A DNA stretch of 64,000 bases from an uncultured Nitrospinota bacterium (lineage in GTDB: Bacteria > Nitrospinota > Nitrospinia > Nitrospinales > JAJDAT01): NCBI GenBank assembly GCA_964344185.1, contig CAYFMN010000005.1, positions 65,516 through 129,515 on the forward strand, in the 5' to 3' direction. This document shows positions 4,647 through 30,542 of the stretch, one piece after another. Numbering within the stretch: position 1 is the first letter of the stretch; each line of letters opens with the position of its first letter. A program made the translations under genes and the position numbers. Under the pieces are notes generated by a model that saw only the letters and a list, made by a program, of their open reading frames with translations, was not told the DNA's origin and made no database searches.

Positions 4647-5615
4647 CTAAGTTTTTTGATTGGATTCCGCCTGGAAGGACACCAGTTCTGGCTTAAACGT
4701 TTTGAAGTAAAAAAAGACCCCAAACGCGGAAAGGAAAATTACAACAGCTCTAAGGAGCATCACCACTTCCGCCCCTTGGGCCGTGTTAAATAAGGAAAAA
4801 ATTTCAGATCCCACCGTGTCGCTAACTCCCAATCCTAAAGGAGTAACTGGAACAACTCTAGATAAAATAACAAAGGGCATAACGCAAGAAACAATAAGGG
4901 GCCCAATTAATGATCCAAACGTCATGAAACTAAAGTAAGCCGCAAAAATAACGCACACATGCCCCAAAATTGACAACAAAAGAGAAAGCGCTAAAGTCGA
5001 AAAATGATTACGATAACTTTGCATTGCTAACGCAAAATTAGCTACCGCATTGAATCGTTTTAAAAATGGCAGCTTTTTAAATCCTCTTCTGCTACATATC
5101 AAAGCTAATCCAATCACCGAAATAAATAAAAGTAAAACGCTAAACCATAAAAGGTATTCCAGGTTTTTCTGATTACCCTCCACAAACATAAAAATGGCTC
5201 CAGAGATTGGAGCAATAAGCATAAGACCAAGTAATCCAGCTGAGCGATCCATAATAATACTTGAAAGTATTAAACTCTTTCTGGACGCTAAGTTTTCACA
5301 CTTTGATAAATGATAAAATCGAATCGCTTCAATACCAAGACTACCTGGAACAAAGATATTAGCGAAATATCCCATAAAACCAAGATGCATCGTTTCAAAA
5401 AACGTTAAGTAAATGCCATGAGGACGCAGTAATAATTGCCAACGCAACAAGGTGATTATCAGCATAGCCAATTGGCCAATAAATACGCCAAGCAAAGGCA
5501 AACTAAATTGAAGCGTTAAAAACCTTTCAAAATCCAGACGATCAGAAGCCACAAGCCAATAAAGCAAACCCAAAGCGACCGCTAGCCGAAGTATATTTTT
5601 AATTATGGGATTCAT
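4647..5615 (-). CDS. polytopic membrane protein, UPF0104 / lysylphosphatidylglycerol-synthase-TM ('flippase-like') family
   Basis: 322 aa with about 8 hydrophobic spans. The N-terminal region (LAVALGLLYWLV...LRWQLLL) is typical of the family. It is the last gene of the minus-strand glycan operon and is paralogous in architecture to 54241..55281. Confidence 0.6.
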   Translation of the reverse strand: MNPIIKNILRLAVALGLLYWLVASDRLDFERFLTLQFSLPLLGVFIGQLAMLIITLLRWQLLLRPHGIYLTFFETMHLGFMGYFANIFVPGSLGIEAIRFYHLSKCENLASRKSLILSSIIMDRSAGLLGLMLIAPISGAIFMFVEGNQKNLEYLLWFSVLLLFISVIGLALICSRRGFKKLPFLKRFNAVANFALAMQSYRNHFSTLALSLLLSILGHVCVIFAAYFSFMTFGSLIGPLIVSCVMPFVILSRVVPVTPLGLGVSDTVGSEIFSLFNTAQGAEVVMLLRAVVIFLSAFGVFFYFKTFKPELVSFQAESNQKT

Positions 5616-5632: not shown

Positions 5633-6640
5633 TTAATTAACTCGCATACCGTATTTCTCTTTTTCGACAATAGAAAGCGTTTCTTCGATAGAGTTTCCTT
5701 TATCGCGGGCATTGAAAAGAATTTGGCCCACTTTCAGCCCGCCCGATTGCAACCTAACTATTGGTTCAACTCCTAGAGAAGAGAGAATAAGTCCCATATG
5801 TCCTGGTTCAGGTTCTTGCTCTGGGAGCCAACGCGTTTCAAAATAAGAACGATCAACATCTCCCCAAAGCTGGCAACATAACGGAGGTTTGCCAGGTAAG
5901 TTCAGCGACATAAGATCGAGATTTCCACCGGAAATAGAAGGAGTGTGGGCAAAAACAATTACATCGATGATATGGTCAGAAAAATTCGTTTGGTCCAGTA
6001 CATTAGCGCCCATTCCAGTAAGAGTTTTTCTTACATACGGGCCAAAATCATTATCAGAAATCAAAAGAATATTATTGCCAACAATCTCCAAGCCCGCTTC
6101 CAGTAAAGCTTGGGCAACTACTGGTCCTAGATATTCAAAAACTCCAATGTCTGGATGTCTTTCATTTGTTCCAGCTACAGGAATGCCATGTTCCTTGCAA
6201 GCGTCAAGAGAAACGTCTATTGGTCGAAATTCCCAAGCCTCGTACATAAGAGGAATAACACACCCCGCTTTCATTTTACTTATTTTATTAAAGTCTAAAG
6301 GTCGAAGATGGCCGCTATTAGTAACAATACATGCTTCTTCAAAACTTTTTTCGAGTTTTGCAGGGTCGTTTGTAATCACAAGAGTTTTCTGATTCAACGA
6401 TAAAACATCGGCGAAACTTAAAACATCGGCGCGAGCTTCCTCAAAAGAACCAAATTGACTATCTTTACCAAAAGCGATAACTTTTTCAGCGCCCGCTAAC
6501 AAAGCAATTATCGGAGTGCATGCATATATCCCAGTAGCGCATTCCGTAATAACAGTCATACCTTTCAAATCAATTTGCAAACGAGCGACAGCGGCTTCAA
6601 TCGAGCTTGTCATTCGGAAAAGCAAAAAATTATCTAGCAA
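5633..6640 (-). CDS. hypothetical protein (possible Rossmann-like two-domain enzyme) in the glycan operon
   Basis: 335-aa ORF whose start overlaps the stop of the upstream DegT gene by 7 nt, suggesting coupling. No family recognised. Confidence 0.55.
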   Translation of the reverse strand: MLDNFLLFRMTSSIEAAVARLQIDLKGMTVITECATGIYACTPIIALLAGAEKVIAFGKDSQFGSFEEARADVLSFADVLSLNQKTLVITNDPAKLEKSFEEACIVTNSGHLRPLDFNKISKMKAGCVIPLMYEAWEFRPIDVSLDACKEHGIPVAGTNERHPDIGVFEYLGPVVAQALLEAGLEIVGNNILLISDNDFGPYVRKTLTGMGANVLDQTNFSDHIIDVIVFAHTPSISGGNLDLMSLNLPGKPPLCCQLWGDVDRSYFETRWLPEQEPEPGHMGLILSSLGVEPIVRLQSGGLKVGQILFNARDKGNSIEETLSIVEKEKYGMRVN

Positions 6641-7911
6641 GACGGCGCCTTATGTATTGTTTCAGAAATAGTATTTAAATCTTCTTTTGTCATACCAGGG
6701 AAAAAAGGCAGGAGGACAACATTATCGCGAGCTTCTTCCGAAGATTTTAAATTTTCCCAATGGCCCGCATACGGCAGCTCTTGATGCGCATTCATAATGC
6801 CACGACGCGTTGGAATTCCTTTATCAAGCAGGTACTGCATAAACGCTTTTTGTTTGAGAGGAGCGTTTTCAAGAAGACGAATGGGATAACTCTGCCAATT
6901 AGAACGAACCGTGTTTGGACTTTTTAAAGTAGATAACCAACTGATATCAGAAAGAAGCTTTTCATATTGCGCGGCTAAATTCCTGCGTTCTTTCACAATA
7001 TTTTTAAGCTTTTTTAATTGTTCGATTCCAACTGCGGCTTGAATATCGGTTATTCTAAAATTAAAACCGGTTGTTAAATAGTCTTCGAAAATAACCTCTT
7101 TTGCCTTATGCCGCACAGTATCGGGCACACTCATACCATGTTGCCGCAACAATCGAAATTTGGAATCGTAATCCGAATTGTTGGTAGTCAGCATACCTCC
7201 ATCGCCAGTAGTAATGACTTTACGAGGATGAAAACTAAAGCAAGCAATCTCTCCATGAGGTTTGCCAATTTTGTCCCATGATTTTCCGTCGTCAAGAGAA
7301 ACTTCGCTGCCAATGGCGCAAGCTGCATCTTCAACCACCGGTAATTTAAATTCTTTGGCGATCTCCACAATTCGCTTAATGTCGCAAGGCGTTCCTATCT
7401 GGTGTACTACAAGGATAGCGGTAACACGTCCGAGATTGGATGAGTTTCCCTCAGCAAGTTGAGTTAAAAATTTAAGTGGGGATTCTTCCGAAACAATTCG
7501 ATCTAATCGCTTGTAATAAAATTTTCCATCGCGTTTGATACAATCTTTGGCTAGAAGCTCATTTAGCGCTTCCGGGCACATGTTGTAAGTTGCTGGATCA
7601 ATATCTACAAAAACCGGTTCTGCTCCGCAGAATCGAATAGAATTAGCAGTGGCGATAAAACTATGGCTTACGGTTATAACAACATCGCCTAAACCAACGC
7701 CGATAGTTTTTAAACCCATTTGTAAGGCGGTTGTACAACTAGAAACTGCGCACGCGTAGGAAGCTCCTACAAAATTGGCGAAGTCGTCTTCAAACTGTTT
7801 TACCTTGGGTCCTTGAGTAACCCATTGCGAAAGAATCGCATCGCGAGCGGCGGCGGCTTCTTCTTCCCCTAAATTGGGCCGCGCAAAGGGAATCATTTTT
7901 AAATTTTCCAA
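6634..7911 (-). CDS. DegT/DnrJ/EryC1/StrS family sugar aminotransferase
   Basis: 425 aa. Has the family PLP-lysine context FSFHPRKVITTGDGGML and an N-terminal motif of the form PFARP...E..A......S.W.T.GP.V..FE. Confidence 0.85.
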   Translation of the reverse strand: MENLKMIPFARPNLGEEEAAAARDAILSQWVTQGPKVKQFEDDFANFVGASYACAVSSCTTALQMGLKTIGVGLGDVVITVSHSFIATANSIRFCGAEPVFVDIDPATYNMCPEALNELLAKDCIKRDGKFYYKRLDRIVSEESPLKFLTQLAEGNSSNLGRVTAILVVHQIGTPCDIKRIVEIAKEFKLPVVEDAACAIGSEVSLDDGKSWDKIGKPHGEIACFSFHPRKVITTGDGGMLTTNNSDYDSKFRLLRQHGMSVPDTVRHKAKEVIFEDYLTTGFNFRITDIQAAVGIEQLKKLKNIVKERRNLAAQYEKLLSDISWLSTLKSPNTVRSNWQSYPIRLLENAPLKQKAFMQYLLDKGIPTRRGIMNAHQELPYAGHWENLKSSEEARDNVVLLPFFPGMTKEDLNTISETIHKAPSC

Positions 7912-8903
7912 TTTCGCCCAACTTCCAATTGGTTTAATTTATCGATTCCAAAAGGATGATTGCGAAAATAATTGATCGTTTGATCCAAGCCTGTTTCAAA
8001 ATCTGTCTGCGGAAGCCAGTCGGAAAATTGCATAAATGCAGACGGGTCGGAATAAAGCCGTAAAACGTCTCCAGGTCGGTCGTCGGTAAATGTCATCTTT
8101 ACGTCTGGATTACCAACCTTTTCAACCAATTTTTCTGCCAAATCTTTTATAGAGATTTCAAATCGGCTGCCAATATTAAAAACTTTGCCTGTCATTTTTT
8201 CAGACTCTGCCGCGGCGATCAAACCTCGGGCCGTATCTTCTACGTAGGTAAAATCCCTGGTTTGACTACCATCTCCAAATATCAGTATTTCTTTACCGCC
8301 CAAAGCTCGCACGATAGACTTTGGAATCATCTCTCCAGAATCACCCTCGTAATGTGAACGAGGACCATACGTATTGAAAGGTCTAATCACCATCGTGTTC
8401 ATTCCATAAGTTTCATGGTAGGCCAAAGTGTACTTTTCGCCGGCAAGTTTACTTGCTCCATATACTGTTGACGGCTTTGTCGGATGATTCTCGTCCATTG
8501 GAACTGTTTCAGCCGTTCCATAAACTTCCGAACTAGAACAATAAATAAGCCGTTCCACTCCAACTTGTCGAGCAGCTTCGCAAATCATTAACGTTCCTGT
8601 TCCATTGGTTCGCTGGTTTTCTAAAGGAAAGGAGAGAGAATGACGCACGCCAAGGCAAGCCAGATGAAACACAATATCTATATCCGCTAAAGCGATACTA
8701 GCGTCTTTTTGATCCGCAACGTCTCCTTCAATGAATTCAAAATTTTGATTACCCTCATGATGCACTATATTTGAGTGTTTTCCATTGCTCAAATTATCGA
8801 GGACTCTAACTCGGCAACCTTTTTCCATTAATTTATCTACAAGGTGCGAACCAATGAAACCTGCTCCGCCTGTGACTAAACAATGCTTTTCTTGAAGCGA
8901 CAT
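7899..8903 (-). CDS. NAD-dependent nucleotide-sugar epimerase/dehydratase (extended SDR)
   Basis: Has VTGGAGFIGSHLV (Rossmann GxxGxxG) and catalytic YGASKLAGE (YxxxK). The ORF track starts at 8957. I prefer the ATG at 8901-8903 (MSLQEKHCLVTGG...), which removes the overlap with the upstream acetyltransferase stop at 8909. Confidence 0.85.
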   Translation of the reverse strand: MSLQEKHCLVTGGAGFIGSHLVDKLMEKGCRVRVLDNLSNGKHSNIVHHEGNQNFEFIEGDVADQKDASIALADIDIVFHLACLGVRHSLSFPLENQRTNGTGTLMICEAARQVGVERLIYCSSSEVYGTAETVPMDENHPTKPSTVYGASKLAGEKYTLAYHETYGMNTMVIRPFNTYGPRSHYEGDSGEMIPKSIVRALGGKEILIFGDGSQTRDFTYVEDTARGLIAAAESEKMTGKVFNIGSRFEISIKDLAEKLVEKVGNPDVKMTFTDDRPGDVLRLYSDPSAFMQFSDWLPQTDFETGLDQTINYFRNHPFGIDKLNQLEVGRNWKI

Positions 8904-8908
8904 TTTAA

Positions 8909-9391
8909 TTATCCGGTTTCTACGTTTTTCAAAAATCGAGCTGGGGTACCAACCCAAACTTGCGATGGAGGAACATCCTTAGTTACTACGCTACCCGCTC
9001 CTATAATCGCTTTCTTTCCTATAGTAACGCCGCACATAATCGTTACACTGGAACCTATTGAAACTTCGTCTTCCACGACTATTGGCACGACAGACCAATC
9101 TGCATCAGTTTGCATAGATCCATCGGGATTGGTAGCCGCTGGATATTTATCGTTTATAAAGGTAACATTGTGACCAATAAAAACTCGATTATGAATCGTC
9201 ACTCCCTCGCAAATAAAACTGTGACTGGAAATCTTGCAGTCGGCGCCAATAGAAGCTCCCTTTTGGATTTCAACGAAAGTACCGATTTTTGTGCGATCGC
9301 CGATTTCGCACCCATAAGCGTTAACAAAGTTATAGATCTTTACATCCTTGCCTAACTTAACGTCTTGGGCAATTCCCTGAAACATTTCCAT
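8909..9391 (-). CDS. left-handed beta-helix (hexapeptide-repeat) sugar N-acetyltransferase, WbpD-like
   Basis: 160 aa with repeated [LIV]G-x4 hexapeptide pattern (IGDRTKIGTFVEIQKGASIGADCKISSHSFI...). Confidence 0.8.
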   Translation of the reverse strand: MEMFQGIAQDVKLGKDVKIYNFVNAYGCEIGDRTKIGTFVEIQKGASIGADCKISSHSFICEGVTIHNRVFIGHNVTFINDKYPAATNPDGSMQTDADWSVVPIVVEDEVSIGSSVTIMCGVTIGKKAIIGAGSVVTKDVPPSQVWVGTPARFLKNVETG

Positions 9392-9455: not shown

Positions 9456-10457
9456 CTAAACTTCGACTGGAGCTCCGCCAAGTTTTAAAGATTTATCCGC
9501 CGCTTCAAGAGTTTTAACAACTCGCAGACCGGTGGTCGCGTCATTGATCGGCTTTGTTCCATTTTCAATAGAATCCAAAAATTCAGCAACTTCCACCCCT
9601 AAAGCTTCTTTTTGAGGTATTACAGGAACATACATATCGCCAATACGATACTCTGCGATCATATCTAAACCTTCGTCATGGCTTTTCATCTCTACGCCCT
9701 TGTTATAAATCTTAATGGCTTCTTCTTTTTCCAGGTCGTTCCACACTAACATCTGTTTGCTACCGCCTAAAATCGTTTTACGAACTTTGACCGGCGATAG
9801 CCAGTTAACGTGAGCATGTGCCAAAAGATTATCGCCATAATCTAAGGTCAAAAACGCCACATCTACCATTTTATTGTAATGAGAACTACCGGTTGCGCTA
9901 ACTGTCTTGGGGGAAGATCCAATTAGGTAATTCATTATAGAAAGATCGTGAGTTGCAAGATCCCAAAGAACATTAACGTCATGCTGGAATAACCCTAAGT
10001 TAATACGAACGGAATCAAAGTAAAGCAAGTCGCCAAAATCTTCATGGTCAATATATTTTTTGATCATCCTAACCGGATTGGTGAATAAAAAGGTATGATC
10101 AACAATGGCGACAAGTCCAGATTTGTCCGCCAATTCAACAATTTCTTCGGCTTGCTTGGCATTGGAGGCAATGGGTTTTTCAATCCAAACGTGCTTCCCA
10201 TTTTTCAAAGCGTTTATTGCAAATTCATAATGAGTATGGACAGGGGTAGAAATAACCACAATGTCAATATCTTTACCTTCGGTGACCGCTTTGGCGTCGT
10301 CTGTTATCTCTGTATGGGGGTGGAAACGTTGCGCTTCCTTTCGACGTTTTTCTCTTAAATCCGCAATCCGTAATAACTTAACTTTCTGGTTTGCTTGAAA
10401 ATTCCTGGCCAAGTTTGGCCCCCAATATCCATATCCTATTAAACCAACACGAAACAT
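9456..10457 (-). CDS. Gfo/Idh/MocA family NAD-dependent sugar oxidoreductase, WbpB-like
   Basis: 333 aa with N-terminal Rossmann segment VGLIGYGYWGPNLARN and the EKP motif (VWIEKPIA). Confidence 0.8.
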   Translation of the reverse strand: MFRVGLIGYGYWGPNLARNFQANQKVKLLRIADLREKRRKEAQRFHPHTEITDDAKAVTEGKDIDIVVISTPVHTHYEFAINALKNGKHVWIEKPIASNAKQAEEIVELADKSGLVAIVDHTFLFTNPVRMIKKYIDHEDFGDLLYFDSVRINLGLFQHDVNVLWDLATHDLSIMNYLIGSSPKTVSATGSSHYNKMVDVAFLTLDYGDNLLAHAHVNWLSPVKVRKTILGGSKQMLVWNDLEKEEAIKIYNKGVEMKSHDEGLDMIAEYRIGDMYVPVIPQKEALGVEVAEFLDSIENGTKPINDATTGLRVVKTLEAADKSLKLGGAPVEV

Positions 10458-10735: not shown

Positions 10736-11881
10736 TTAAGCGTTTTTGCTATAAAACTCTTTAATTGAATCGGCGACGTATTTTATCTGCTCAGTTTGCA
10801 ATTCCGGAAACATGGGCAGCGATAATATTTCTGCGCAAAATTTTTCGGCTTTTGGAAAATCTCCTTTTTTATAACCCAAATTGGAATAAGCCTGTTGAAA
10901 ATGCAAAGGAGTAGGATAATGCAGCCCACAGCCAACATCGCGTTCTTTTAAAAACTGTTGTAGTTGATCACGGTCCTTAGCGCGGATAACATAGAGATGA
11001 TATACATGGCAACCATTGTTCGCTTCTGTAGGCGTTTCAATTTCCGCGATATCCCGCAAAGCTTCACCGTACAGCCGGGCGTTTTCTCTCCTTTTATCGG
11101 TACAATCCTGTAAGTATTTTAATTTAATCTTCAGAATCGTCGCTTGTATTCCGCTGATCCGATAATTATGGCCGGGAAATTCATGCTGATATTTTGCGCT
11201 CGATCCGTGATCGGCAATTTTCCTCATTTTTGCCGCTATGGTATCGTCGTTAGTAATCACGGCCCCAGCATCGCCAAAGGCCCCCAGGTTTTTAGCGGGA
11301 TAAAACGAAAAAGCGCCCGCAGCGCCCGTTGTGCCAACGTATTTTTTAGTCGCTCCGCCATCCGAGGACAAATAAGAAAGATGCGCTTGGCAAGAGTCTT
11401 CCACAACGCTCACGCCAAATTCATCGGCAATGGATTTAATAATATCAATTTCGCATGGTTTTCCATATAAATGAACGGGAATAACCGCTTTAACCTTGCC
11501 TGTTTCGCTTCTCTTTTCGAGTTCTTGCCGCAACAAACCGGTATCTAAATTATAGGAATCATCGTGATCAATAAAAACTGGAGTGGCTCCGGTTAAAGAA
11601 ACCGCTTCAGCCGTAGCAATGAAAGTGTTCACCGGAACGATAACTTCGTCGCTTGGTCCCACATCTAGAGCCCATAAGGCCGCATGAAGAGCGGCAGTTC
11701 CTGAATTAACCCCAACGCAGTGTTTTGCATTATGAAGTTTAGCGAACTCAGACTCAAAATCGGCTACCGCAGGACCTCCAACAAACCATCCGGTCGCAAT
11801 AAATTCCAAAATAGCGGAATCAATTTCACTCTTAAGGGAAACGTATTGTTTTTTCAAATCAACGAAGGGAACTTGCATCAT
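10736..11881 (-). CDS. DegT/DnrJ/EryC1/StrS family sugar aminotransferase, WbpE-like
   Basis: 381 aa. Has PFVDLK...E...A......G.FV.GP.V..FE and the PLP-lysine context FSFYPAKNLGAFGDAGAV. Confidence 0.85.
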   Translation of the reverse strand: MMQVPFVDLKKQYVSLKSEIDSAILEFIATGWFVGGPAVADFESEFAKLHNAKHCVGVNSGTAALHAALWALDVGPSDEVIVPVNTFIATAEAVSLTGATPVFIDHDDSYNLDTGLLRQELEKRSETGKVKAVIPVHLYGKPCEIDIIKSIADEFGVSVVEDSCQAHLSYLSSDGGATKKYVGTTGAAGAFSFYPAKNLGAFGDAGAVITNDDTIAAKMRKIADHGSSAKYQHEFPGHNYRISGIQATILKIKLKYLQDCTDKRRENARLYGEALRDIAEIETPTEANNGCHVYHLYVIRAKDRDQLQQFLKERDVGCGLHYPTPLHFQQAYSNLGYKKGDFPKAEKFCAEILSLPMFPELQTEQIKYVADSIKEFYSKNA

Positions 11882-12511
11882 ACTCCTCGGTTTTCAGGTG
11901 CGCAGTTTTAGCGTCATTTTTGTAAGCAATAGACACAAAAACTTAGACTTAATGCGTATTTGGATTTTTTAGATAATGAACTCGCTCTGGTTAGAGCCAA
12001 GAAGAAACTATCGTCGAAAGAATTATCTCGACGAATAGGCTTTTGCTAATACTACACTGGATTTTATATTTGGCCAATACCTTTGAAATCTAAATAATTT
12101 TAGTCTAGTTTTTTTACCCAAATAACAAACCTGTTCATTTTATAATAAGGCCAATTACAACTCTTTACGAGAACCCTACCACTTATCAAAAAAATTAATT
12201 AATCTTTATAAACCAATTAGTTACTGAGGTTCTTAAATTGTTCTTCGTAAGGGTTTTCCGAAAACTTGCATTGAAAATAAAATAAAGAAAACTTATAATT
12301 TAACGATAAGTTTAATAAACTTAAGAAGTTTACTAAAGATTTGAATCAAAAAAAATCTAGCTCCAAAAGTTAAAAATAAGGGATAATAAACAAGTAAACT
12401 CATTAATTAATAGGGAGTTTTCTTAATATTCCCTTTTAAATAGCATATCCTGCCATGAAAATTGGACTTAAAATTGAATTAGTCCATAACGCCATACGAA
12501 AGGTAAATTGA

Positions 12512-14038
12512 ATGCCTACTCAAAATCGACCAAAATTACTCGGAATTGCTGGTAGTTTGCGAAACGCAAGATGGGGTATGGGAAACAAAGAATTGGTTGA
12601 ATCTATTAAGCAAATAAAAAGTGAAGAACAACTTTATGCCTTCTTGGCCGAAGAATCGGAATTACACCTCAATAATTTTATTGAAGCCGGTCGAAAAGAA
12701 GGTAAACCTTTCTTGGAAATTTATAAAAACTTAAAAAGCCAAAAAGGTAACAAAGGCTTAAGCAACTCCGAGGTGGCTTTGGCGGCTGCTTTATGGGCGG
12801 CCCACACAAAAAATGTGGATATCGATCATATTTCGCTTTCTGAATATTTCACAGCGACGGGTCGTTCCCGAAAAATCGGCGAATTAAAGGAAATGATTTT
12901 GGCCGCAGACGGATTATTAATATCAGGTCCTGTTTATTTTGGCGATAGAGGAAGTCTGGTGCATGATCTGATCGAAATGATCCGCCACGACCCAGAAATG
13001 CACGAACAAGTTAAAGGAAAACTTTACGGCGGCATCGCAGTAGGCGCCAAACGTAACGGCGGACAGGAGACAACCTTGATTTACCAAATGTTAGATATGG
13101 TAGCTCTGGGATTCGAAGCCGTTGGTAATGATAGCGATACTACCTCGCAGTATGGAGGAACGGGTCTCGCTGGCGATGTTGGTTCCATGCACAAAGACCA
13201 ATACGGTTTAAACACCTCAATGGGAACTGGACGCCGGATGGGAAACCTTCTTAGAAGACGTAGTTATAACAGAGAAATCAATGGACCTGTGAACGTTGCG
13301 TTTTTAATTCTCCAAGAATCTGAAAATATCGCCAAGCGCGGAATAGAAGATCTCTTAAAACATTGTGATGGTAAAATCGCCCCGACAATTGTAGATATTT
13401 CCACTAAAAACATTATTCGCTGTCTTGCATGCGACATCTGCCCAACGGATATTGATATCGACGAAGTTTATCGGTGCATTATCACTTCTGAGCAAGACGA
13501 TTTCGAAGCCCTACATCCAAGTCTTCTCGACTACGACGCTATCATTCCCGTAGCGGTGTCGGTGCATAACACTGATAAAGTAACTAGCAACTACCAAACT
13601 TTCGTCGAGCGCACCCGATACTTACGACGAGGAGACTACGTATTTTCAGATATGTTAACCGCTCCTTTAACGTTTGAAGAAATTGGCGTAAGAGAACATT
13701 ATTCTATTAGAATGCTGACATCAATGATCCGTCACCATACAGTAATGACCAAACCTATGATTGGTCACTTACACAATGGTGAATTATTAAACAAGGAACA
13801 ATTTTTCGCAGAGTTTAATGATTTTGTAAGCTCGGCGCATAGACTGACTTCCGCGCGACTGGCAGAAATCGACGCAGAAGAAACCGTCAAATATAATCCT
13901 GTCGGCTATGTTCTCAGCGCAGATAAAGATAAAGAAGACGAACGACTTCAAAAAAGAAAATCGATGACGGAAGACCGCAAAGCCAAGATGATCAAACAAG
14001 CCAAAGAACGTCTGAAACCAAATGAGGCTTTAGTTTGA
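12512..14038 (+). CDS. tandem flavodoxin-fold (NADPH-dependent FMN reductase-like) protein with CxxCxxC motif and Lys/Glu-rich tail
   Basis: 508 aa. The first half has LLGIAGSLRN...LLISGPVYFGDRGSLVHDLIEMI. The second half has NVAFLIL...CLACDICP...DDFEAL...YDAIIPVAV. The stop overlaps the TTG start of the next gene. Confidence 0.6.
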   Translation: MPTQNRPKLLGIAGSLRNARWGMGNKELVESIKQIKSEEQLYAFLAEESELHLNNFIEAGRKEGKPFLEIYKNLKSQKGNKGLSNSEVALAAALWAAHTKNVDIDHISLSEYFTATGRSRKIGELKEMILAADGLLISGPVYFGDRGSLVHDLIEMIRHDPEMHEQVKGKLYGGIAVGAKRNGGQETTLIYQMLDMVALGFEAVGNDSDTTSQYGGTGLAGDVGSMHKDQYGLNTSMGTGRRMGNLLRRRSYNREINGPVNVAFLILQESENIAKRGIEDLLKHCDGKIAPTIVDISTKNIIRCLACDICPTDIDIDEVYRCIITSEQDDFEALHPSLLDYDAIIPVAVSVHNTDKVTSNYQTFVERTRYLRRGDYVFSDMLTAPLTFEEIGVREHYSIRMLTSMIRHHTVMTKPMIGHLHNGELLNKEQFFAEFNDFVSSAHRLTSARLAEIDAEETVKYNPVGYVLSADKDKEDERLQKRKSMTEDRKAKMIKQAKERLKPNEALV

Positions 14039-15138
14039 ATCAACGCCATAGGCGTATAGTCCGTTTCGAGTTTGGAACACTTGCTTGTCCTCTTCATAAA
14101 CCCTACGAGTTATCGTTTGCCACTCTCTCGAATTTTGATGTGGTATGGGTTTTTATAGAGGACGATGAAGGCAAAATAGGAATTGGCGAAACCGTTCCCC
14201 TGCTAGGTTACGGCCACGAAACATTGGAAGACGTTCTCGGTTGTATCCAAAATTTAAACAAAGACGCCAATTCGCTCACCGCTGAAGAACTAAAAGAAAG
14301 ATGTTTCGCAGTCAGAAACGAATTTCCTTTTTCAGCTTCGGCAGTGATGATGGCTTTAGAGTTTCCAGACTGGGCAACTTCCGCTTCTAAAATTCTTCCA
14401 ACCTCTTTAGTTTATCCTCTGGCCGCAGGCCAACAGAAAGAACTTCTTTCGCAAACCATAGAAGAAGCTCTATCTCTAGGATATAAATATTTTAAAATGA
14501 AGGTCGGTCGAGATATCGACCAAGATTTGAAAAGCGCAGAATTTGCTCTGAACCTTTTTCCGCAAAAAACTTTCCGGATCAGTTTTGACGCTAATCAAGC
14601 TTACAAGCTAGACGACGCCTTGGCTTTGTGCCGGTTTCTAGAAAACAAATCGCGAGCGCATTGTGTGGAACAACCTTTACCGCAACTAGATTGGGATAGC
14701 ATGGCCAATCTTTGCAGACAAACCTCTTTTCCATTAATGTTGGACGAAAGTATTTACAACGAACAAGATATCCGAAAAGCCAAAGAAATAGGATGTTCTG
14801 CCGTTAAATTAAAATTATGCAAACATCCCGGATTGGAAGAAACTCTATCCCTGGCGCAATTAGCAAAGGATTTAGGTCTGGAAGTTGTTATCGGCAACGG
14901 AGTTTCTACAGATATTGGAAATTTAGCGGAAGCTTTGGTAATATCCAAAACGCCTCAACTATTTGGCGAAGGAGCGGAATGCAACGGTTTTTTAAAGATT
15001 AAGCGCCCAATAACCTTCCCTCAGCTCTATTTAGACAACGCTGGTTGTATGGCCTGGAAAAAAGACGACCGGTCTCTTAGCAATCAACTAATTCAATCAA
15101 TTCAAGAATCAATATTCAATTTAGCGGGAAAAAAATGA
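14035..15138 (+). CDS. enolase-superfamily enzyme (MR/MLE subgroup; dipeptide/amino-acid epimerase-like)
   Basis: 367 aa with ordered motifs FKMKVG (KxK), FDANQAY (metal Asp), VEQPL (Glu), LMLDES (Asp) and KLKLCK (Lys). The TTG start at 14035 overlaps the upstream TGA. Confidence 0.8.
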   Translation: MNQRHRRIVRFEFGTLACPLHKPYELSFATLSNFDVVWVFIEDDEGKIGIGETVPLLGYGHETLEDVLGCIQNLNKDANSLTAEELKERCFAVRNEFPFSASAVMMALEFPDWATSASKILPTSLVYPLAAGQQKELLSQTIEEALSLGYKYFKMKVGRDIDQDLKSAEFALNLFPQKTFRISFDANQAYKLDDALALCRFLENKSRAHCVEQPLPQLDWDSMANLCRQTSFPLMLDESIYNEQDIRKAKEIGCSAVKLKLCKHPGLEETLSLAQLAKDLGLEVVIGNGVSTDIGNLAEALVISKTPQLFGEGAECNGFLKIKRPITFPQLYLDNAGCMAWKKDDRSLSNQLIQSIQESIFNLAGKK

Positions 15139-16214
15139 AACGCACCATCTTAGTACAGGGAGCCGGCTCGGGCGGGGGAAACAACGTAATCAATTCTTTA
15201 CGAAGAAGCGGCATGGATACAAGAATTTTAGGATCTAATTGCCTCCATCATTCAGTATTAAAATCTACCGCCGATCAAACATTCCTGCTTCCAGAATCTT
15301 CTCAACCCGATTACCTTTCCGCTCTACAAGATTTGATAGTAAAAGAAAAGATCGACATGGTGGTTCCGCAAAGCGATAGAGAAGTCAACGCTGTATCTCT
15401 TAACAGAGACCAATTAAATTGCCGCGTGTTTTTGCCTGAACATGATGTTGTAGAAACATGCCAGGACAAGCACAGCATGTTTTTGAAATTAAATAAAGCA
15501 AAGGTAAGAACCGCCTCTGCGGTTCCTCTAGAAACTTTGGACGATGTAGACAAAGCGTTTGAAACTCTACCCGATTCACCAAAATATTGGGTTCGGCTGC
15601 GAAGAGGATCGGGCAGTAAAGGCGCTACATGGGTAAAAACTCCACAACAAGCCAAAGCATGGATCGAACTTTGGGTAGATTTAAGAGAGCAAAAAGTTTC
15701 TGATTTTCATATTCTACCGTTTCTCCCCGGGCGAGATTACGCTTTTCAAAGTGTTTGGAAAAACGGCGAATTGGTCGTCGCTAAAATGTGCGAACGATTA
15801 CAATATTTTATGGGTTCTTTGCGTTTAAGCGGTATGTCAAGCACCCCAGAAATCGCCCGAACATTAAGAGACGATAAAGCTTTGGAAACTATATTTAAAG
15901 CTATAAACACCGTCGCCGACAAACCCAACGGGAATTTTAATTTGGATCTCAAAGCCGATGCAGACGGCGAAATGAACGTAACAGAATTTAACGTGGGTCG
16001 TTTCTGTATGATCACGCCAATTTTCGATAGAACCGGCGTCGCCAATACCGTCGAAGCTCACGTGCGCTGCGCTTTTGACGAAAACTTTAAAATTAAAGAA
16101 CCTATCGACATTGTGGAAGATTACTATTTAATTCGGGAATTGGATACAGAACCTTTGGTAATTCATAAAAGCGAATGGGACAAACTAACAGAAACTTCGC
16201 AAAGATCTCTTTAA
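15135..16214 (+). CDS. ATP-grasp family ligase
   Basis: 359 aa with ATGA start/stop overlap to the epimerase gene. The N-terminal pre-ATP-grasp segment (ILVQGAGSGGGNNVINSLRR) and overall length and layout resemble carboxylate-amine ligases. The family call is by resemblance only. Confidence 0.6.
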   Translation: MKRTILVQGAGSGGGNNVINSLRRSGMDTRILGSNCLHHSVLKSTADQTFLLPESSQPDYLSALQDLIVKEKIDMVVPQSDREVNAVSLNRDQLNCRVFLPEHDVVETCQDKHSMFLKLNKAKVRTASAVPLETLDDVDKAFETLPDSPKYWVRLRRGSGSKGATWVKTPQQAKAWIELWVDLREQKVSDFHILPFLPGRDYAFQSVWKNGELVVAKMCERLQYFMGSLRLSGMSSTPEIARTLRDDKALETIFKAINTVADKPNGNFNLDLKADADGEMNVTEFNVGRFCMITPIFDRTGVANTVEAHVRCAFDENFKIKEPIDIVEDYYLIRELDTEPLVIHKSEWDKLTETSQRSL

Positions 16215-16298: not shown

Positions 16299-17951
16299 AT
16301 GGCTAAGATTATGGCAAGTCTTAAGTCCAATAACCAACACAGCGTTTGGTTTATTTTGCTTGCGATTTCTCTAGTCGTTATAAAACGTCTTCTCATATCT
16401 CAATATGGAATCAACCGAGAAGCCGGAATTGAATTAGAAGCTGTTTTTTCGGTATTGGACGGTCGCTTAATATACCGAGACTTTTATTGGTATCACGGAT
16501 TCTTTCCCATATATTGGCATGCGTTGATGTTCAAAATTTTTTCGCCGGAAATTTATTATCTCCGGCTTTTCGTCACCGTATTTTCCGGAATCGCTTCCTT
16601 TTTTGCCTACCGGGTTGCGGCGTATTTTCTAAGTCCCGGCTATGCCGTTGCCGCCGTTATTTTAAGTTTTTCAGGATTGTTGATGCCGGAACATGTAACT
16701 GGCGAAATGGTAGCGTTTTGTTGTCTCATTGCTTCTCTTTACTATTTAATCGATTATTGTAAAACGTCGCGCTCGCAATCCTTGTTCTTCGCCGGACTGG
16801 CAGGAGGTTTCTGTACGCTATCGCAAGTTCTGCCATTGGGTGTTGGAGCGTTGTTGGCAGGTTTTTGTTCCATTACTTTTTACGGTATTTTTGGAGGCAG
16901 GGGGTTCGTAAAAAACAGCAAAGCTTTTCTGATAGGTTATTTACCAATTCCACTATTAGCCTACGGAATCTTAGCGATAATAATGCCGGCAAAAAAAATG
17001 CTTTTTAACATTTTTCCGATTTTTGCGGGCTACGCTCCTTTATCCACAAAACTCACGAAATACGGGTTTCCATCGTTACTGCCTAATATCGGTTTCGACC
17101 AAACTCTTACACAATTAGTCGCTCATCTAAATCAATACGTCGTTCTAAACATTCGCTACTGGCTTATAGTCTTTGTTACGCTGTGGGGAATAATTTATTT
17201 TTTTTTAAAATATCGGAAAAAAGAATCCAAGCAAGATTCTCTTCTGGTCTTAGGAACTTTGGTTATTTTCAGTCCCTTATTTGAAGCCAAATTTTTGTTG
17301 CAGTTAGGTCGTATGGGATTGACTCCCAATTACATAAATATGCTGCCGACTTATGTTTTATTCTTTTACTTATTAAAAGAAAGTAAGATACTAAGTCGCG
17401 TTAGACCTTTTTTGGCGATAGGATTAGTATCCGTTTATTTTTTATATCCACTCGGAAATTATTTTCAATATTTTTCAAAGAACGCGGTACCGCTGAACTT
17501 ACCATATACTCGGTGGATTTCGGTAACGCCCTATAAAAAAGATCTATATGTTAAGACAACGAACTTTATTAAATCTAACACCAAACCCACGGATCAAATT
17601 ATTTTTACAGGAATCAATCGATATTTCTCAATTTTTTCGGGCCGGAACGATGTGTTTCGCGATAATATTTTAATGTTCACACGCGCTCCATTTTATCCGC
17701 CAATCGCGGCGCATACGCCAAACGCCCGTTCGCCAGAATTTGAAATGGATCTAGAAAACAAAATGAAAACAGAAAGTCCCAAACTTATTTTATTTCCGGA
17801 AAAATTTCGCAAGTTGGCGAAGTCGGAAAATTCCCATTTTATTTCTACATTAGACAATGATTGGCGTGTACTGGCTCATTATGGCGACGAATCCCTAAAA
17901 AATTTCTATGAATACGAGTCTCCCATTTTGATATACGGGAGAAAAGGTTAA
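16299..17951 (+). CDS. GT-C fold polytopic membrane glycosyltransferase (GT39 / ArnT / PMT_2-like)
   Basis: 550 aa with at least 10 hydrophobic spans in the first 400 aa followed by a soluble C-terminal domain. The N-terminal pattern (...YWYHGFFPIYW...IFSPEIYYLRLFVTVFSGIASFFAYRVA) resembles the ArnT/PMT_2 family. Confidence 0.55.
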   Translation: MAKIMASLKSNNQHSVWFILLAISLVVIKRLLISQYGINREAGIELEAVFSVLDGRLIYRDFYWYHGFFPIYWHALMFKIFSPEIYYLRLFVTVFSGIASFFAYRVAAYFLSPGYAVAAVILSFSGLLMPEHVTGEMVAFCCLIASLYYLIDYCKTSRSQSLFFAGLAGGFCTLSQVLPLGVGALLAGFCSITFYGIFGGRGFVKNSKAFLIGYLPIPLLAYGILAIIMPAKKMLFNIFPIFAGYAPLSTKLTKYGFPSLLPNIGFDQTLTQLVAHLNQYVVLNIRYWLIVFVTLWGIIYFFLKYRKKESKQDSLLVLGTLVIFSPLFEAKFLLQLGRMGLTPNYINMLPTYVLFFYLLKESKILSRVRPFLAIGLVSVYFLYPLGNYFQYFSKNAVPLNLPYTRWISVTPYKKDLYVKTTNFIKSNTKPTDQIIFTGINRYFSIFSGRNDVFRDNILMFTRAPFYPPIAAHTPNARSPEFEMDLENKMKTESPKLILFPEKFRKLAKSENSHFISTLDNDWRVLAHYGDESLKNFYEYESPILIYGRKG

Positions 17952-17955
17952 ACGC

Positions 17956-18903
17956 ATGGATAAAAGTATAGACCTTTCAATAATCACTTCCTGTTATCGA
18001 GAAAAAGATAATTTACAAAATCTGTGGGAACAATTGCATCCAGTTATAGATAGTCTGGATATTGAATGGGAATGGATTCTTATAGACGACGGTTCGCCCG
18101 ATGAAACTTGGGAAGAAATAAAAACACTTTCCAATCAAGTCGAAAAAATAAAAGGAATACGCTTAACCTCAAACAGAGGTTCTCATATAGCCTTGTCTGC
18201 CGGAATAGAACACGCGCAAGGAAATTGGATCACTAAAATACCCGCCGACGCGCAAGACCCGCCGGAACTCATCGTGGACGAATGGAATAACAAAGACGAC
18301 GTTGATATTGTTTGGGGAGTTAGAAAACAACATCCAGGTAAAGGATTGGAAGCGCTTTTCTCCGATCTTTATCACAAAATGTTCCGAAGAGTTGTCATGC
18401 CGCATTTTCCAAAGGAAGTGGTCGACGGATTTCTTATCAGTCGTCGAACTGCACAATGGATGCTGCAAAGCCCACGATATAATGCTTCCATTTTTGGGAG
18501 GTTGTTAGAACTCGATCTTCCAAGTCGAAAAGTTTATTTCGAAAAAAGAAAACGTAAAAAAGGCGTTTCGGGATGGACACTAGAGAAAAAAATCAAATTG
18601 GTATTGGATTCTTTAGTTTCTTTCTCTTGCCGGCCTTTAAGGTTAATATGCGTGATTGGTTTATTTTTAATGTTATGCGGAATCGTCTCAACCATCGCTA
18701 CAGGAATATTTGGCGACAACTCGCAAATCAGCTTTTGGAAAATGATTTTAACTTTAGTCCCTTTATTAGGCGGACTACAAATGTTTCTAACCGGATTCCT
18801 TGGCGAGTACGTTTGGCGGGTATTCAACACAGCCCAAGGCGGCTCAGCTTATTACATAAGAGAGTGCGTGGGTAAAGTAGAAAAACAAAACTACGATGAA
18901 TAA
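17956..18903 (+). CDS. GT2 polyprenyl-phosphate glycosyltransferase (ArnC / DPM1-like) with C-terminal TM helices
   Basis: 315 aa with LSIITSCYREKDNL, ILIDDGSPDET (DxD region) and two C-terminal hydrophobic helices. Confidence 0.8.
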   Translation: MDKSIDLSIITSCYREKDNLQNLWEQLHPVIDSLDIEWEWILIDDGSPDETWEEIKTLSNQVEKIKGIRLTSNRGSHIALSAGIEHAQGNWITKIPADAQDPPELIVDEWNNKDDVDIVWGVRKQHPGKGLEALFSDLYHKMFRRVVMPHFPKEVVDGFLISRRTAQWMLQSPRYNASIFGRLLELDLPSRKVYFEKRKRKKGVSGWTLEKKIKLVLDSLVSFSCRPLRLICVIGLFLMLCGIVSTIATGIFGDNSQISFWKMILTLVPLLGGLQMFLTGFLGEYVWRVFNTAQGGSAYYIRECVGKVEKQNYDE

Positions 18904-25265: not shown

Positions 25266-25374
25266 TCATTTCTCCAAAAAACTCTGGAATTTTCAAAGAA
25301 GTTTTAGCGCTATTTTAAAGAATTGTTATTTTTAGGTCTGCGAAGAAAACCAAGAGAACTTCAAAAAAACCCGC

Positions 25375-27975
<2,601 letters not shown>

Positions 27976-28036
27976 TTACTTTAATTAGTAAAAAAAGTCT
28001 TATATATATTTTAAGAAGAAGAAGGGCTTGTTAAAA

Positions 28037-28198
28037 TGTGGAAAAGCTAGCTAAGTACTCAAAATATAAAGGAAAATTCTATGAATAAATTGTTAGACAA
28101 AATGATACTTTTTTCGGACACGGAAGGATGTAACTTTTTTTACAATATTATACCTTATTTTCCACAAGGATTCACAATTAATTAACAGGTTATCCACG
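28037..28198. promoter_or_regulatory. cluster of four DnaA-box-like 9-mers in the dnaA-gyrB spacer
   Basis: tgtggaaaa at 28037-28045 (reverse complement TTTTCCACA), ttttccaca at 28158-28166, ggattcaca at 28168-28176, and ttatccacg at 28190-28198 (overlaps the dnaA stop). Consensus is TTATNCACA. Confidence 0.4.
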
Positions 28199-30313: not shown

Positions 30314-30541
30314 ATGGCAGTAAATTTAATCAGTCGTCCTGACGTAGCTTTAAAAAATAAATCCATTAAAGAAAAGGAAACCGTAATTTCCGAGTATTTA
30401 TCAAAATATCCTGACTCGGAATCTGCGGTAAACGCTGTAAAAACCAAAATAGATTCGGCTCAAGATTTATCTCAGATTAAGTCAAATTTAAACGAGGTAT
30501 TTGCCGAAATTATAAAAGTTATGTATGCCTTAGGAAAATAG
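30314..30541 (+). CDS. hypothetical small protein (75 aa)
   Basis: The ATG is preceded by AAAGGAA. The stop lies 1 nt before the next gene start. No family recognised. Confidence 0.5.
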   Translation: MAVNLISRPDVALKNKSIKEKETVISEYLSKYPDSESAVNAVKTKIDSAQDLSQIKSNLNEVFAEIIKVMYALGK

Positions 30542-30542
30542 A

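What the first reader, a model, noticed from the sequence alone, without database searches (positions are those of the whole stretch)
12512..16214. Translationally coupled module of tandem flavodoxin-fold protein, enolase-superfamily epimerase and ATP-grasp ligase inside the glycan cluster
The three genes overlap at their junctions (a TTG start overlapping TGA at 14035-14038, and ATGA at 15135-15138). That implies stoichiometric co-expression.

The enolase-superfamily member has the full KxK/D/E/D/K catalytic set of MR/MLE-type epimerases, the family that includes L-Ala-D/L-Glu epimerase. Pairing it with an ATP-grasp carboxylate-amine ligase suggests synthesis of a D-amino-acid-containing amide, either a dipeptide or an amino acid amide-linked to a uronic acid or amino sugar made by the neighbouring genes.

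The 508-aa partner is unusual. It has two flavodoxin/FMN-reductase-like halves, a large insert in the first half, a CLACDICP motif in the second half, and a highly charged K/E tail. I do not recognise this trio as a described pathway.
Basis: partly seen in the sequence, partly recalled or inferred. Interest (0 to 1): 0.55.

Follow-up and report, generated by a model that had tools for sequence, protein, structure and literature searches.

The report
Conserved flavoprotein–enolase–ligase sugar-decorating gene trio
Three tightly packed genes in a cell-surface sugar cluster of a Nitrospinia bacterium form a cassette that recurs in at least 13 bacterial phyla and has no described function; it most likely builds an unusual amide-linked side group on an amino sugar.

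Summary
The ORFs 12512-14038, 14035-15138 and 15135-16214 overlap as TTGA and ATGA.

The 508-aa protein (F) has two flavodoxin-like halves. The N-half is WrbA-like with a roughly 60-residue helical insert. The C-half carries four invariant cysteines and an Isf-like Fe-S motif.

The second protein is an MLE-subgroup enolase-superfamily member. Its K154-x-K156, D185, E212, D237 and K260 are invariant in 37 relatives. The third protein is an ATP-grasp ligase.

The trio is not unique to this genome. In 80 non-redundant loci that encode F, the enolase gene is adjacent in 46 and the ATP-grasp gene lies within 3.5 kb in 42. The full trio is present in 41. One metagenomic protein fuses F to the enolase.

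The conserved core is the F-enolase pair. The ligase partner is much more divergent and can be replaced.

The surrounding genes make amino sugars or nonulosonic acids. A sugar 6-dehydrogenase motif occurs in only 3 of 80 loci and not in the window, so a uronic-acid amide is not favoured.

No curated family, solved structure or paper describes F or the trio. The function is inferred, not shown. The most likely one is synthesis and amide attachment of a non-standard acyl or aminoacyl group.

The parts
12271..12299 (+). Promoter-like site (TTGAAA-17-TATAAT) in the 630-bp AT-rich divergent intergenic region
   Evidence: 11 of 12 consensus match. This is a consensus match only. No Rfam element was found in 11700-12700.
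12512..14038 (+). F: 508-aa tandem flavodoxin-fold protein. The N-half is WrbA-like and probably binds FMN. The C-half is an Isf-like FMN_red fold with invariant C304, C307, C310 and C322. It ends in a charged C-terminal helix.
   Evidence: Pfam FMN_red 48 bits over aa 84-188. Profile hits to WrbA/PnpB. AF2 models with pLDDT 79 and 82. Foldseek hits to WrbA for the whole protein, and to SP1951 and ArsH for the C-half. Invariant residues.
14035..15138 (+). Enolase-superfamily enzyme, MLE subgroup (K154-x-K156, D185, E212, D237, K260). TTG start overlapping the stop codon of F.
   Evidence: Pfam MR_MLE_C 94 bits. PDB hits 2p88, 1jpm and 3jva. Residue conservation in 37 homologues. Junction sequence.
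15135..16214 (+). ATP-grasp carboxylate-amine ligase (PylC-like N domain; invariant K112, E284-x-N286, R289). ATGA overlap with the enolase gene.
   Evidence: Pfam PylC-like_N 29.8 bits. NCBIfam PRK12767 hit below cut-off. Profile hits to PDB 2pn1, a PurD-like protein, LysX and BacD. Junction sequence.
16299..17951 (+). Polytopic PMT_2 / ArnT-like GT-C glycosyltransferase, same operon
   Evidence: Pfam PMT_2 26.6 bits, cut-off 26.1.
17956..18903 (+). GT2 polyprenyl-phosphate glycosyltransferase (ArnC/PgfS-like), same operon
   Evidence: Pfam Glycos_transf_2. NCBIfam PgfS 121 bits and ArnC 91 bits, both below equivalog cut-offs.
10736..11881 (-). DegT-family sugar aminotransferase (Lys retained), first gene of the divergent operon
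   Evidence: Pfam DegT_DnrJ_EryC1 369 bits.
9456..10457 (-). GFO/IDH/MocA sugar 3-dehydrogenase (WbpB / UDP-GlcNAc 3-dehydrogenase-like)
   Evidence: NF040723, 146 bits, below cut-off.
8909..9391 (-). Hexapeptide-repeat N-acetyltransferase (WbpD/NeuD-like)
7899..8957 (-). SDR sugar 4,6-dehydratase/epimerase (LegB-like)
   Evidence: TIGR04180, 244 bits, below cut-off.
6634..7911 (-). Second DegT-family aminotransferase (PseC/LegC-like; FSFHPRK lysine retained)
5633..6640 (-). 335-aa protein of unknown family. Its homologues lie next to the window-type ATP-grasp gene in L037 and L043.
   Evidence: No Pfam, NCBIfam or PDB hit. tblastn co-occurrence.
4647..5615 (-). Flippase-like membrane protein (LPG_synthase_TM / TIGR00374)

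Best explanation
The trio is a conserved, horizontally mobile tailoring cassette for surface glycans. It prepares a non-standard carboxylic or amino acid and attaches it by an amide bond to an amino group of an amino sugar.

Proposed sugar in this window: a di- or tri-amino hexose made by the divergent GFO/DegT/acetyltransferase/SDR/DegT operon. The ArnC-like GT2 would then load it onto a polyprenyl phosphate, and the ArnT-like GT-C enzyme would transfer it outside the membrane.

Proposed division of labour:
- The ATP-grasp enzyme makes the amide through an acyl-phosphate intermediate.
- The MLE-type enolase enzyme abstracts the proton alpha to a free carboxylate of the acyl or amino-acid moiety. 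This gives either epimerisation (L to D) or beta-elimination.
- F takes a hydride from NAD(P)H onto FMN in its WrbA-like half and passes electrons through a [4Fe-4S] cluster in its Isf-like half. It thereby performs the redox step coupled to the enolase reaction, most plausibly reduction of the unsaturated (enoate or dehydro-amino-acid) product.
- F and the enolase probably work as a physical pair.

Shown: the anatomy, the residue conservation, the gene linkage and the glycan context. Inferred: all the chemistry.
For: Linkage:
- In 80 non-redundant F loci, the enolase is within 300 bp in 46 and within 3.5 kb in 50.
- The ATP-grasp is within 3.5 kb in 42.
- The trio is present in 41 loci, on one strand in 36.
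- All gene orders occur, but F and the enolase stay adjacent in most trio loci (46 of the 50 loci with an enolase).
- Tight junctions or overlaps are seen in Desulfobaculum, Tumidithrix, Pseudodesulfovibrio and Verrucomicrobiota.
- One 922-aa protein fuses F to the enolase. Its C-terminal part is 34% identical to the window enolase, E = 5e-45.

Enolase:
- The full catalytic set is invariant.
- The nearest solved relatives include dipeptide epimerases, and 2p88, which I recall to be an N-succinyl-amino-acid racemase; that name is from memory, as the database calls it only an MR/MLE family protein.
- The nearest NCBIfam models are OSBS, a dehydratase, and DgcA, an N-acetyl-D-Glu racemase. These enzymes carry out either racemisation or dehydration, so both are within reach.

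F:
- The WrbA motifs SGPVYFGDRGS and GAKRNGGQETT are conserved.
- Both halves have a flavodoxin fold.
- The four cysteines are invariant.

Ligase:
- Profile hits to amino-acid and carboxylate-amine ligases: LysX, BacD and a PurD-like protein.

Context:
- DegT, GFO or NeuB genes are present in 21 of 31 fully flanked enolase-containing loci.
- An ArnC-like GT2 occurs only in enolase-containing loci.

Divergence pattern:
- Against the window proteins, F is 45-65% identical and the enolase 28-44%.
- The ATP-grasp is detectable by tblastn in only about 9 loci.
- This fits a constant acid-making pair combined with an acceptor-specific ligase.
Against: - There are no biochemical data for any member.
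- F also occurs without the enolase or the ATP-grasp in 28 of 80 loci. There it sits beside a DltA-like adenylating enzyme plus MBOAT, beside chemoreceptor genes, or beside TauE/TauD. F therefore need not be tied to this chemistry.
- An epimerase needs no reductase, and nothing distinguishes epimerase from dehydratase by sequence.
- FMN and Fe-S binding are predicted only. The Cys spacing is CX2CX2CX11C, not the Isf spacing CX2CX2CX4-7C.
- The fusion protein is a singleton from a 5.6-kb metagenome contig and could be an assembly or frameshift artefact.
- An ATP-grasp of this family occurs in a similar cluster without F or the enolase (L088).
- The acceptor and the acid are both unknown.
Confidence: 0.45

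Rival explanations
1. The ATP-grasp links an L-amino acid through its amine to a uronic-acid carboxylate, or makes a dipeptide. The enolase enzyme then epimerises the alpha-carbon of the resulting N-acyl amino acid to the D form. F is an accessory protein.
For: An N-(uronoyl) amino acid is chemically an N-acyl amino acid, the substrate class of the closest solved relatives. These include dipeptide epimerases (1jpm, 3jva) and 2p88, which I recall to be an N-succinyl-amino-acid racemase (from memory, not the database name). WbpB/WbpE/WbpD-like genes, known from the UDP-diacetamido-uronic acid pathway, flank the trio in the window and in about 13-15 other loci. AsnB-like amidotransferases, which act on carboxylates, are frequent neighbours.
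Against: The UDP-sugar 6-dehydrogenase catalytic motif is absent from the whole 64-kb window. It is found in only 3 of 80 loci within 10 kb. None appears in the six loci with Pfam annotation. The model gives no role to F, which is the most conserved and most tightly linked partner. Scores against the L-Ala-D/L-Glu epimerase models are far below cut-off: 68 against 500, and 57 against 343. The region where dipeptide epimerases carry a DxD ammonium-binding motif reads GEGAEC here. That alignment was made by eye and the motif is recalled from the literature.
Confidence: 0.2
2. F is a generic NAD(P)H-driven electron donor or redox sensor, like KefF or a flavodoxin reductase, rather than a pathway enzyme. 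It supplies electrons to, or regulates, whatever is encoded beside it. The enolase-ATP-grasp chemistry is redox-independent.
For: The conserved residues listed are invariant across 15 family members drawn from several different contexts. F sits beside chemoreceptor genes in 8 loci and directly beside APS/PAPS reductase in 4-5 loci. It also sits beside TauE/TauD. A WrbA-like domain plus an Fe-S domain is an electron-transfer architecture.
Against: The F tree shows the chemoreceptor-linked members nested as two small derived clades inside the enolase-linked group. The DltA/MBOAT-linked members form a separate clade, so the ancestral and dominant partnership is with the enolase. Enolase-superfamily and ATP-grasp enzymes have no known need for an electron donor. 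Overlapping genes and one fusion with the enolase argue for a specific partnership.
Confidence: 0.15
3. The cassette makes a sulfonated substituent. Locally produced sulfite is added to an unsaturated intermediate generated by the enolase enzyme, for example dehydroalanine to cysteate. F handles the sulfite or redox step.
For: A bona fide APS/PAPS reductase (ECGMH motif and CC...CxxC cysteines) lies within 25 bp of F or the F-enolase pair in L005, L034 and L041, and close by in L081 and L044. TauE-family permease genes flank F in L001 and L031, TauD in L001, and an SsuA-like binding protein in L031.
Against: This applies to only about 7 of 80 loci. The window has no APS reductase, TauE or TauD near the trio. 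No sulfite-handling cofactor such as sirohaem or molybdopterin is predicted in F.
Confidence: 0.07

Closest known systems
N-succinyl/N-acyl amino acid racemases and L-Ala-D/L-Glu (dipeptide) epimerases of the MLE subgroup, enolase superfamily (2p88, 1jpm YkfB, 3jva)
   Same: Same barrel and the same catalytic set: KxK, Asp/Glu/Asp metal ligands and a second Lys. These are the best sequence matches among solved structures, E = 1e-17 to 1e-19.
   Different: Identity is only about 20-25%. Scores are below every NCBIfam equivalog cut-off. The genomic context is glycan biosynthesis, not murein-peptide recycling or menaquinone synthesis. The gene is obligately paired with a flavoprotein. The DxD motif appears absent.
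WrbA NAD(P)H:quinone oxidoreductase and the iron-sulfur flavoprotein Isf
   Same: The N-half aligns with the WrbA signature motifs and fold. The C-half has an FMN_red/Isf-like flavodoxin fold with a compact Cys cluster after the second strand.
   Different: The two domains are fused in one 508-aa chain. There is a roughly 60-residue helical insert after strand 1, a different Cys spacing (CX2CX2CX11C), an Arg/His-rich conserved patch (R367, R369, R372, R373, R400, R407, H408, H409) and a charged C-terminal helix. There is no PDB sequence hit at E < 0.01 with the single sequence.
Campylobacter jejuni capsule glucuronamide system (ATP-grasp amidoligase Cj1438 with UDP-glucose dehydrogenase Cj1441). 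Recalled from the literature, not tested here.
   Same: An ATP-grasp ligase inside a surface-glycan locus forms an amide on a sugar.
   Different: That system amidates a uronic acid and has no enolase or flavoprotein partner. Here no sugar 6-dehydrogenase is present. Homology of the ligases was not tested.
VanH-VanA logic (a reductase makes the acid that an ATP-grasp ligase then installs) and LanJ-type dehydroalanine reduction (L-Ser to Dha to D-Ala). Analogies from established knowledge.
   Same: A redox enzyme, with or without an elimination step, produces a non-standard acid or D-residue that is then incorporated.
   Different: The enzyme families are unrelated. These are analogies of logic only.
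Arn pathway (ArnB/ArnC/ArnT) for undecaprenyl-phosphate-linked amino-sugar decoration
   Same: The window combines DegT aminotransferases, an ArnC-like GT2, a flippase-like protein and an ArnT-like GT-C enzyme.
   Different: Scores are far below the Arn equivalog cut-offs. Additional enzymes are present (GFO, a second DegT, SDR, the trio). The acceptor is unknown.

Membership tests
Enolase superfamily, MLE subgroup | C-terminal (beta/alpha)7-beta barrel domain (Pfam MR_MLE_C) above the gathering score | tested here: met
   94.1 bits against a cut-off of 29.4.
Enolase superfamily, MLE subgroup | KxK at the end of strand 2, three carboxylate metal ligands, and a Lys at the end of strand 6 | tested here: met
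   K154/K156, D185, E212, D237 and K260 align with YkfB K160/K162, D191, E219, D244 and K268. The alignment is; the YkfB residue numbers are recalled from the literature. All are 100% conserved in 37 homologues.
L-Ala-D/L-Glu (dipeptide) epimerase | Score above the curated equivalog cut-off | tested here: not met
   NF041118: 68 bits against 500. NF011708: 57 bits against 343.
L-Ala-D/L-Glu (dipeptide) epimerase | DxD motif after strand 8 that binds the dipeptide ammonium group (feature recalled from the literature) | tested here: inconclusive
   The corresponding region reads FGEGAECNG, with E315 conserved. The HMMER alignment to 1jpm stops at residue 300, so the register was set by eye.
o-Succinylbenzoate synthase (MenC) | Score above the equivalog cut-off, and men-gene context | tested here: not met
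   TIGR01927: 92.8 bits against 130.55. NF002739: 91.7 bits against 259. No men genes lie nearby.
ATP-grasp carboxylate-amine ligases | ATP-grasp domain hit and conserved ATP/Mg residues (Lys, the E-x-N motif) | tested here: met
   PylC-like_N: 29.8 bits against 27. K112, D271, K273, E284, N286 and R289 are invariant in 24 homologues. The profile hits 2pn1 at 2e-11, and also a PurD-like protein, LysX and BacD.
ATP-grasp carboxylate-amine ligases | ATP-dependent amide formation | not testable with these tools
   Needs an enzyme assay.
WrbA / NADPH-dependent FMN reductase (flavodoxin-like) family | Pfam FMN_red above cut-off, WrbA-type FMN-binding motifs and the fold | tested here: met
   48.1 bits against 24. 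The profile aligns PTRFG and GGQETT of WrbA with GPVYFGDRG and NGGQETT of F. Foldseek to WrbA 2a5l gives E = 9e-6 and TM(target) 0.71.
Iron-sulfur flavoprotein (Isf) | Compact CX2CX2CX4-7C motif ligating a [4Fe-4S] cluster in a flavodoxin-like domain (feature recalled from the literature) | tested here: inconclusive
   Invariant C304-X2-C307-X2-C310-X11-C322 lies after strand 2 of the C-half. The fold matches the FMN_red proteins SP1951 and ArsH. The last spacing is longer than in Isf. Cluster binding is not testable here.
Uronic-acid amide (Cj1438-type) decoration systems | A UDP-sugar 6-dehydrogenase in the locus to supply the carboxylate | tested here: not met
   The catalytic motif GG.C..[KVI]D is absent from all six frames of the window. 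It is present in only 3 of 80 loci. This is a motif scan, not a profile search.

The most novel reading that the evidence does not exclude
The F-enolase pair is an undescribed two-enzyme unit. An MLE-type enolase enzyme performs a beta-elimination on an ordinary amino or hydroxy acid. An NAD(P)H-FMN-[4Fe-4S] tandem-flavodoxin reductase then reduces the resulting enoate or dehydro-amino acid. This would be a PLP-independent route to a D- or deoxy-acyl group. Interchangeable ligases (ATP-grasp, AsnB-like, DltA-like) would install that group on surface glycans in at least 13 bacterial phyla and possibly in haloarchaea.
Probability: 0.25. Interest if true: 0.75.

Novelty: new variant of a known kind. 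Interest (0 to 1): 0.6.

Why it matters
Non-carbohydrate substituents on O-antigens, capsules and flagellin glycans determine serotype, phage and antibody recognition, and surface charge. The genes that install many of them are unassigned.

This cassette is widespread: more than 1,100 F clusters at 90% identity, in many phyla. One of its components is a large, highly conserved protein family with no curated model and no structure, and the closest solved relative of the ligase is a structure of unassigned function.

Assigning it would annotate hundreds of glycan loci at once. It could also reveal a new pairing of enolase-superfamily chemistry with flavin/Fe-S redox chemistry. Cultured carriers exist for direct testing: Desulfobaculum xiamenense, Tumidithrix helvetica PCC 7403, Fundidesulfovibrio agrisoli and Roseivirga sp. 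E12.

Tried and rejected
1. E1/E3-type (PMP plus Fe-S reductase) sugar deoxygenation, with F as the reductase. Rejected: both DegT proteins keep the Schiff-base lysine (FSFHPRK and SFYPAK) and are ordinary aminotransferases.
2. Uronic-acid acceptor. Not favoured: no 6-dehydrogenase motif.
3. A riboswitch or other known RNA in the 630-bp leader. None found.
4. The 335-aa ORF 5633-6640 as a cryptic ATP-grasp. hhalign probability below 1%. In contrast, the 284-aa neighbour family c11 in other loci is a remote ATP-grasp relative at 92% probability.
5. Plasmid-borne copies with annotation. None found.
6. Literature searches with eight term sets found no description. The 'WbmS' query returned only unrelated acronyms. 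The Iyer et al. 2009 amidoligase survey (PMC3268129) is not held, so prior in-silico mention of this ATP-grasp family cannot be excluded.
7. Single-sequence PDB searches for F and the ligase returned nothing.
8. The enolase homologue P0345 (39% identity) lies beside glutamate mutase genes. It was treated as outside the family.

Full report
**Observation**

The three ORFs exist exactly as described: 12512-14038 (508 aa), 14035-15138 (367 aa, TTG start) and 15135-16214 (359 aa). The junctions read gtTTGAat, with GAGG 7 nt upstream, and aaATGAaa.

Two further genes follow on the same strand: a PMT_2/ArnT-like GT-C glycosyltransferase at 16299-17951 and an ArnC/PgfS-like GT2 at 17956-18903. No + strand terminator-like site lies in between.

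A 630-bp AT-rich spacer separates this operon from a divergent one. That operon encodes DegT, a GFO/WbpB-like 3-dehydrogenase, a hexapeptide acetyltransferase, a LegB-like SDR, a second DegT, an unknown 335-aa protein and a flippase-like membrane protein.

The window comes from a Nitrospinia genome: locus L007 is 82-95% identical across the cluster. Four-base overlaps are common and prove little by themselves. The conservation described below is what puts the finding above chance.

**The 508-aa protein (F)**

Pfam recognises only an FMN_red segment, aa 84-188. NCBIfam has no model for it, and a single-sequence PDB search finds nothing.

- F belongs to a large full-length family. More than 1,100 clusters at 90% identity were found, at 53-67% identity to the window protein among the best 120, across distant phyla. 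At 50% clustering there are 348 representatives.
- A family profile aligns the N-half with WrbA/PnpB, including the PTRFG-like and GGQETT motifs.
- AlphaFold models have pLDDT 79 for the whole protein and 82 for the C-half alone.
- Foldseek places the N-half with WrbA. It places the C-half with the FMN_red-fold proteins SP1951 and ArsH.
- A roughly 60-residue helical insert follows strand 1.
- Four cysteines are invariant: C304-X2-C307-X2-C310-X11-C322. They lie after strand 2 of the C-half, where Isf proteins carry their [4Fe-4S] motif (the Isf comparison is from memory).
- An Arg/His-rich patch and a charged terminal helix are also conserved.

Cofactor binding is predicted, not shown.

**The enolase-superfamily protein**

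MR_MLE_C scores 94 bits. The best solved relatives are dipeptide epimerases (1jpm, 3jva) and 2p88, which the database calls only an MR/MLE family protein and which I recall to be an N-succinyl-Arg/Lys racemase. The best NCBIfam models are OSBS, DgcA and A-E epimerase, all far below their cut-offs.

K154-x-K156, D185, E212, D237 and K260 are present and invariant in 37 homologues taken from the related loci. The protein is a catalytically competent MLE-subgroup member that belongs to no defined isofunctional family. Sequence cannot tell an epimerase from a dehydratase.

**The ATP-grasp protein**

The PylC-like_N hit is just above the Pfam cut-off. The family contains only 'hypothetical' or 'CPSase-like' names. 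K112, D271, K273, E284-x-N286 and R289 are invariant. Profile matches go to the structural-genomics protein 2pn1 and, more weakly, to a PurD-like protein, LysX, BacD and other amino-acid ligases.

**Conservation of the module**

I fetched 80 genome loci through F and analysed them with ORF clustering and family HMMs. I added further loci found through the ligase and the enolase.

In 80 non-redundant loci:

| Feature | Loci |
|---|---|
| Enolase gene within 300 bp of F | 46 |
| Enolase gene within 3.5 kb of F | 50 |
| ATP-grasp family within 3.5 kb of F | 42 |
| All three genes together | 41 |
| All three on one strand | 36 |

The window's ATP-grasp scores 301 bits against that family's HMM.

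- Every gene order occurs, but F and the enolase are adjacent in most trio loci.
- Starting from the ligase, the trio turns up in a Pseudodesulfovibrio and on a 5.9-kb contig binned as the haloarchaeon Halorientalis. The binning of that contig is unverified.
- Starting from the enolase, the order ATP-grasp-F-enolase, with 1-4 nt overlaps, is found in Desulfobaculum xiamenense and Tumidithrix helvetica PCC 7403.
- One 922-aa metagenomic protein fuses F to an enolase domain of this family. It is a singleton.
- Carriers span Nitrospinota, Planctomycetota, Spirochaetota, Bdellovibrionota, Pseudomonadota, Desulfobacterota, Bacteroidota, Myxococcota, Verrucomicrobiota, Acidobacteriota, Omnitrophota, Nitrospirota and Cyanobacteriota.

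**What varies**

F is the most conserved component, at 45-65% identity to the window protein. The enolase is intermediate at 28-44%. The ligase is so divergent that tblastn detects it in only about 9 loci.

Nine F-enolase loci lack the ATP-grasp. They often have an AsnB-like amidotransferase or an AMP-binding enzyme nearby instead. A window-type ATP-grasp also occurs in a similar cluster without F or the enolase (L088).

Twenty-eight loci have F but neither the enolase nor the ATP-grasp. There F lies next to one of the following:

- a DltA-like adenylating enzyme plus an MBOAT (at least 11 loci);
- a chemoreceptor gene (8 loci);
- TauE/TauD or TauE/SsuA-like genes.

An APS/PAPS reductase abuts F in 4-5 loci.

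A neighbour-joining tree of F puts the DltA/MBOAT-linked proteins in a separate clade. The chemoreceptor-linked ones form two small clades nested inside the enolase-linked majority. The enolase partnership is therefore the dominant one, and probably the ancestral one, in the main clade.

**Glycan context**

Of 31 enolase-containing loci with at least 8 kb on both sides, 21 carry DegT, GFO or NeuB genes within 10 kb. These mark amino-sugar or nonulosonic-acid pathways.

The catalytic motif of UDP-sugar 6-dehydrogenases is absent from the whole window. It is present in only 3 of 80 loci. The handle shared across the loci is therefore an amino group, not a uronate.

Both DegT proteins in the window keep the catalytic lysine. 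This excludes an E1/E3-type deoxygenation role for F.

**Interpretation**

The best-supported reading (confidence about 0.45) has three parts:

- The F-enolase pair prepares a non-standard acid.
- A ligase, here an ATP-grasp, attaches it as an amide to an amino sugar.
- In this window the ArnC-like and ArnT-like enzymes then transfer that sugar by way of a polyprenyl phosphate.

An epimerase needs no redox partner. The obligate pairing, the overlapping genes and the fusion therefore point to a two-step elimination-then-reduction sequence, or to some other redox-coupled reaction. This is inference.

The rivals are:

- F as a generic electron donor or redox sensor (0.15);
- a sulfite/sulfonate route suggested by the APS-reductase and TauE links (0.07).

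**Novelty**

No curated family, solved structure or paper in the held library describes F or the trio. One relevant survey could not be read.

All three proteins belong to known superfamilies, and amide-forming tailoring enzymes are known in glycan loci. I therefore class this as a new variant of a known kind, containing one large uncharacterised protein family.

Noticed in passing
window 22845-31221: gyrA (22845-25265, -), gyrB (25375-27975, -) and dnaA (28190-29524, -) sit together. The cumulative GC-skew minimum, a GC drop to 0.33 and a switch of coding strand all fall at about 28-31 kb. The chromosomal replication origin probably lies in 29525-31221, only about 11-17 kb from the glycan cluster.
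   Followed up: partly
L052, L064, L075-L078, L081-L084 (F at about 10001 in each): A separate clade of F proteins heads operons that encode a DltA-like AMP-binding enzyme and an MBOAT acyltransferase. This resembles D-alanylation or O-acylation systems. It suggests that F serves other acyl-transfer pathways as well.
   Followed up: partly
L001, L026, L028, L038, L042, L044, L055, L063: F genes lie next to methyl-accepting chemotaxis protein genes in Cyanobacteria, Nitrospirota, Alphaproteobacteria and a deltaproteobacterium. In L001, F also lies between TauE and TauD genes. No explanation.
   Followed up: partly
L005 9589-10314; also L034, L041, L081, L044: An APS/PAPS reductase (ECGMH motif, CC...CxxC cysteines) lies directly beside F or the F-enolase pair in several unrelated loci. 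This hints at sulfite chemistry in a subset.
   Followed up: partly
L092 6001-7071: An enolase-superfamily protein 39% identical to the window enzyme (MenC_N plus MR_MLE_C) follows glutamate mutase genes (B12-binding subunit, MutL, MutE). That is the position where methylaspartase is normally expected. It may be a distinct amino-dicarboxylate enzyme.
   Followed up: no
window 5633-6640 (-) and 1921-4176 (-): Two ORFs in the divergent operon (335 aa and 751 aa) have no Pfam, NCBIfam or PDB match. Homologues of the 335-aa protein lie next to the window-type ATP-grasp gene in L037 and L043.
   Followed up: partly
L005 11640-12494 and 12 other loci: A 284-aa family without Pfam hits (cluster c11) sits beside the ATP-grasp gene in 13 loci. 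It is a remote relative of the C-terminal half of the ATP-grasp (hhalign 92%). It may be a degenerate paralogue or a partner subunit. It is absent from the window.
   Followed up: partly
window 32844-33740 (-): A LexA/CI-like repressor (HTH plus S24 peptidase) lies just beyond the putative origin region.
   Followed up: no
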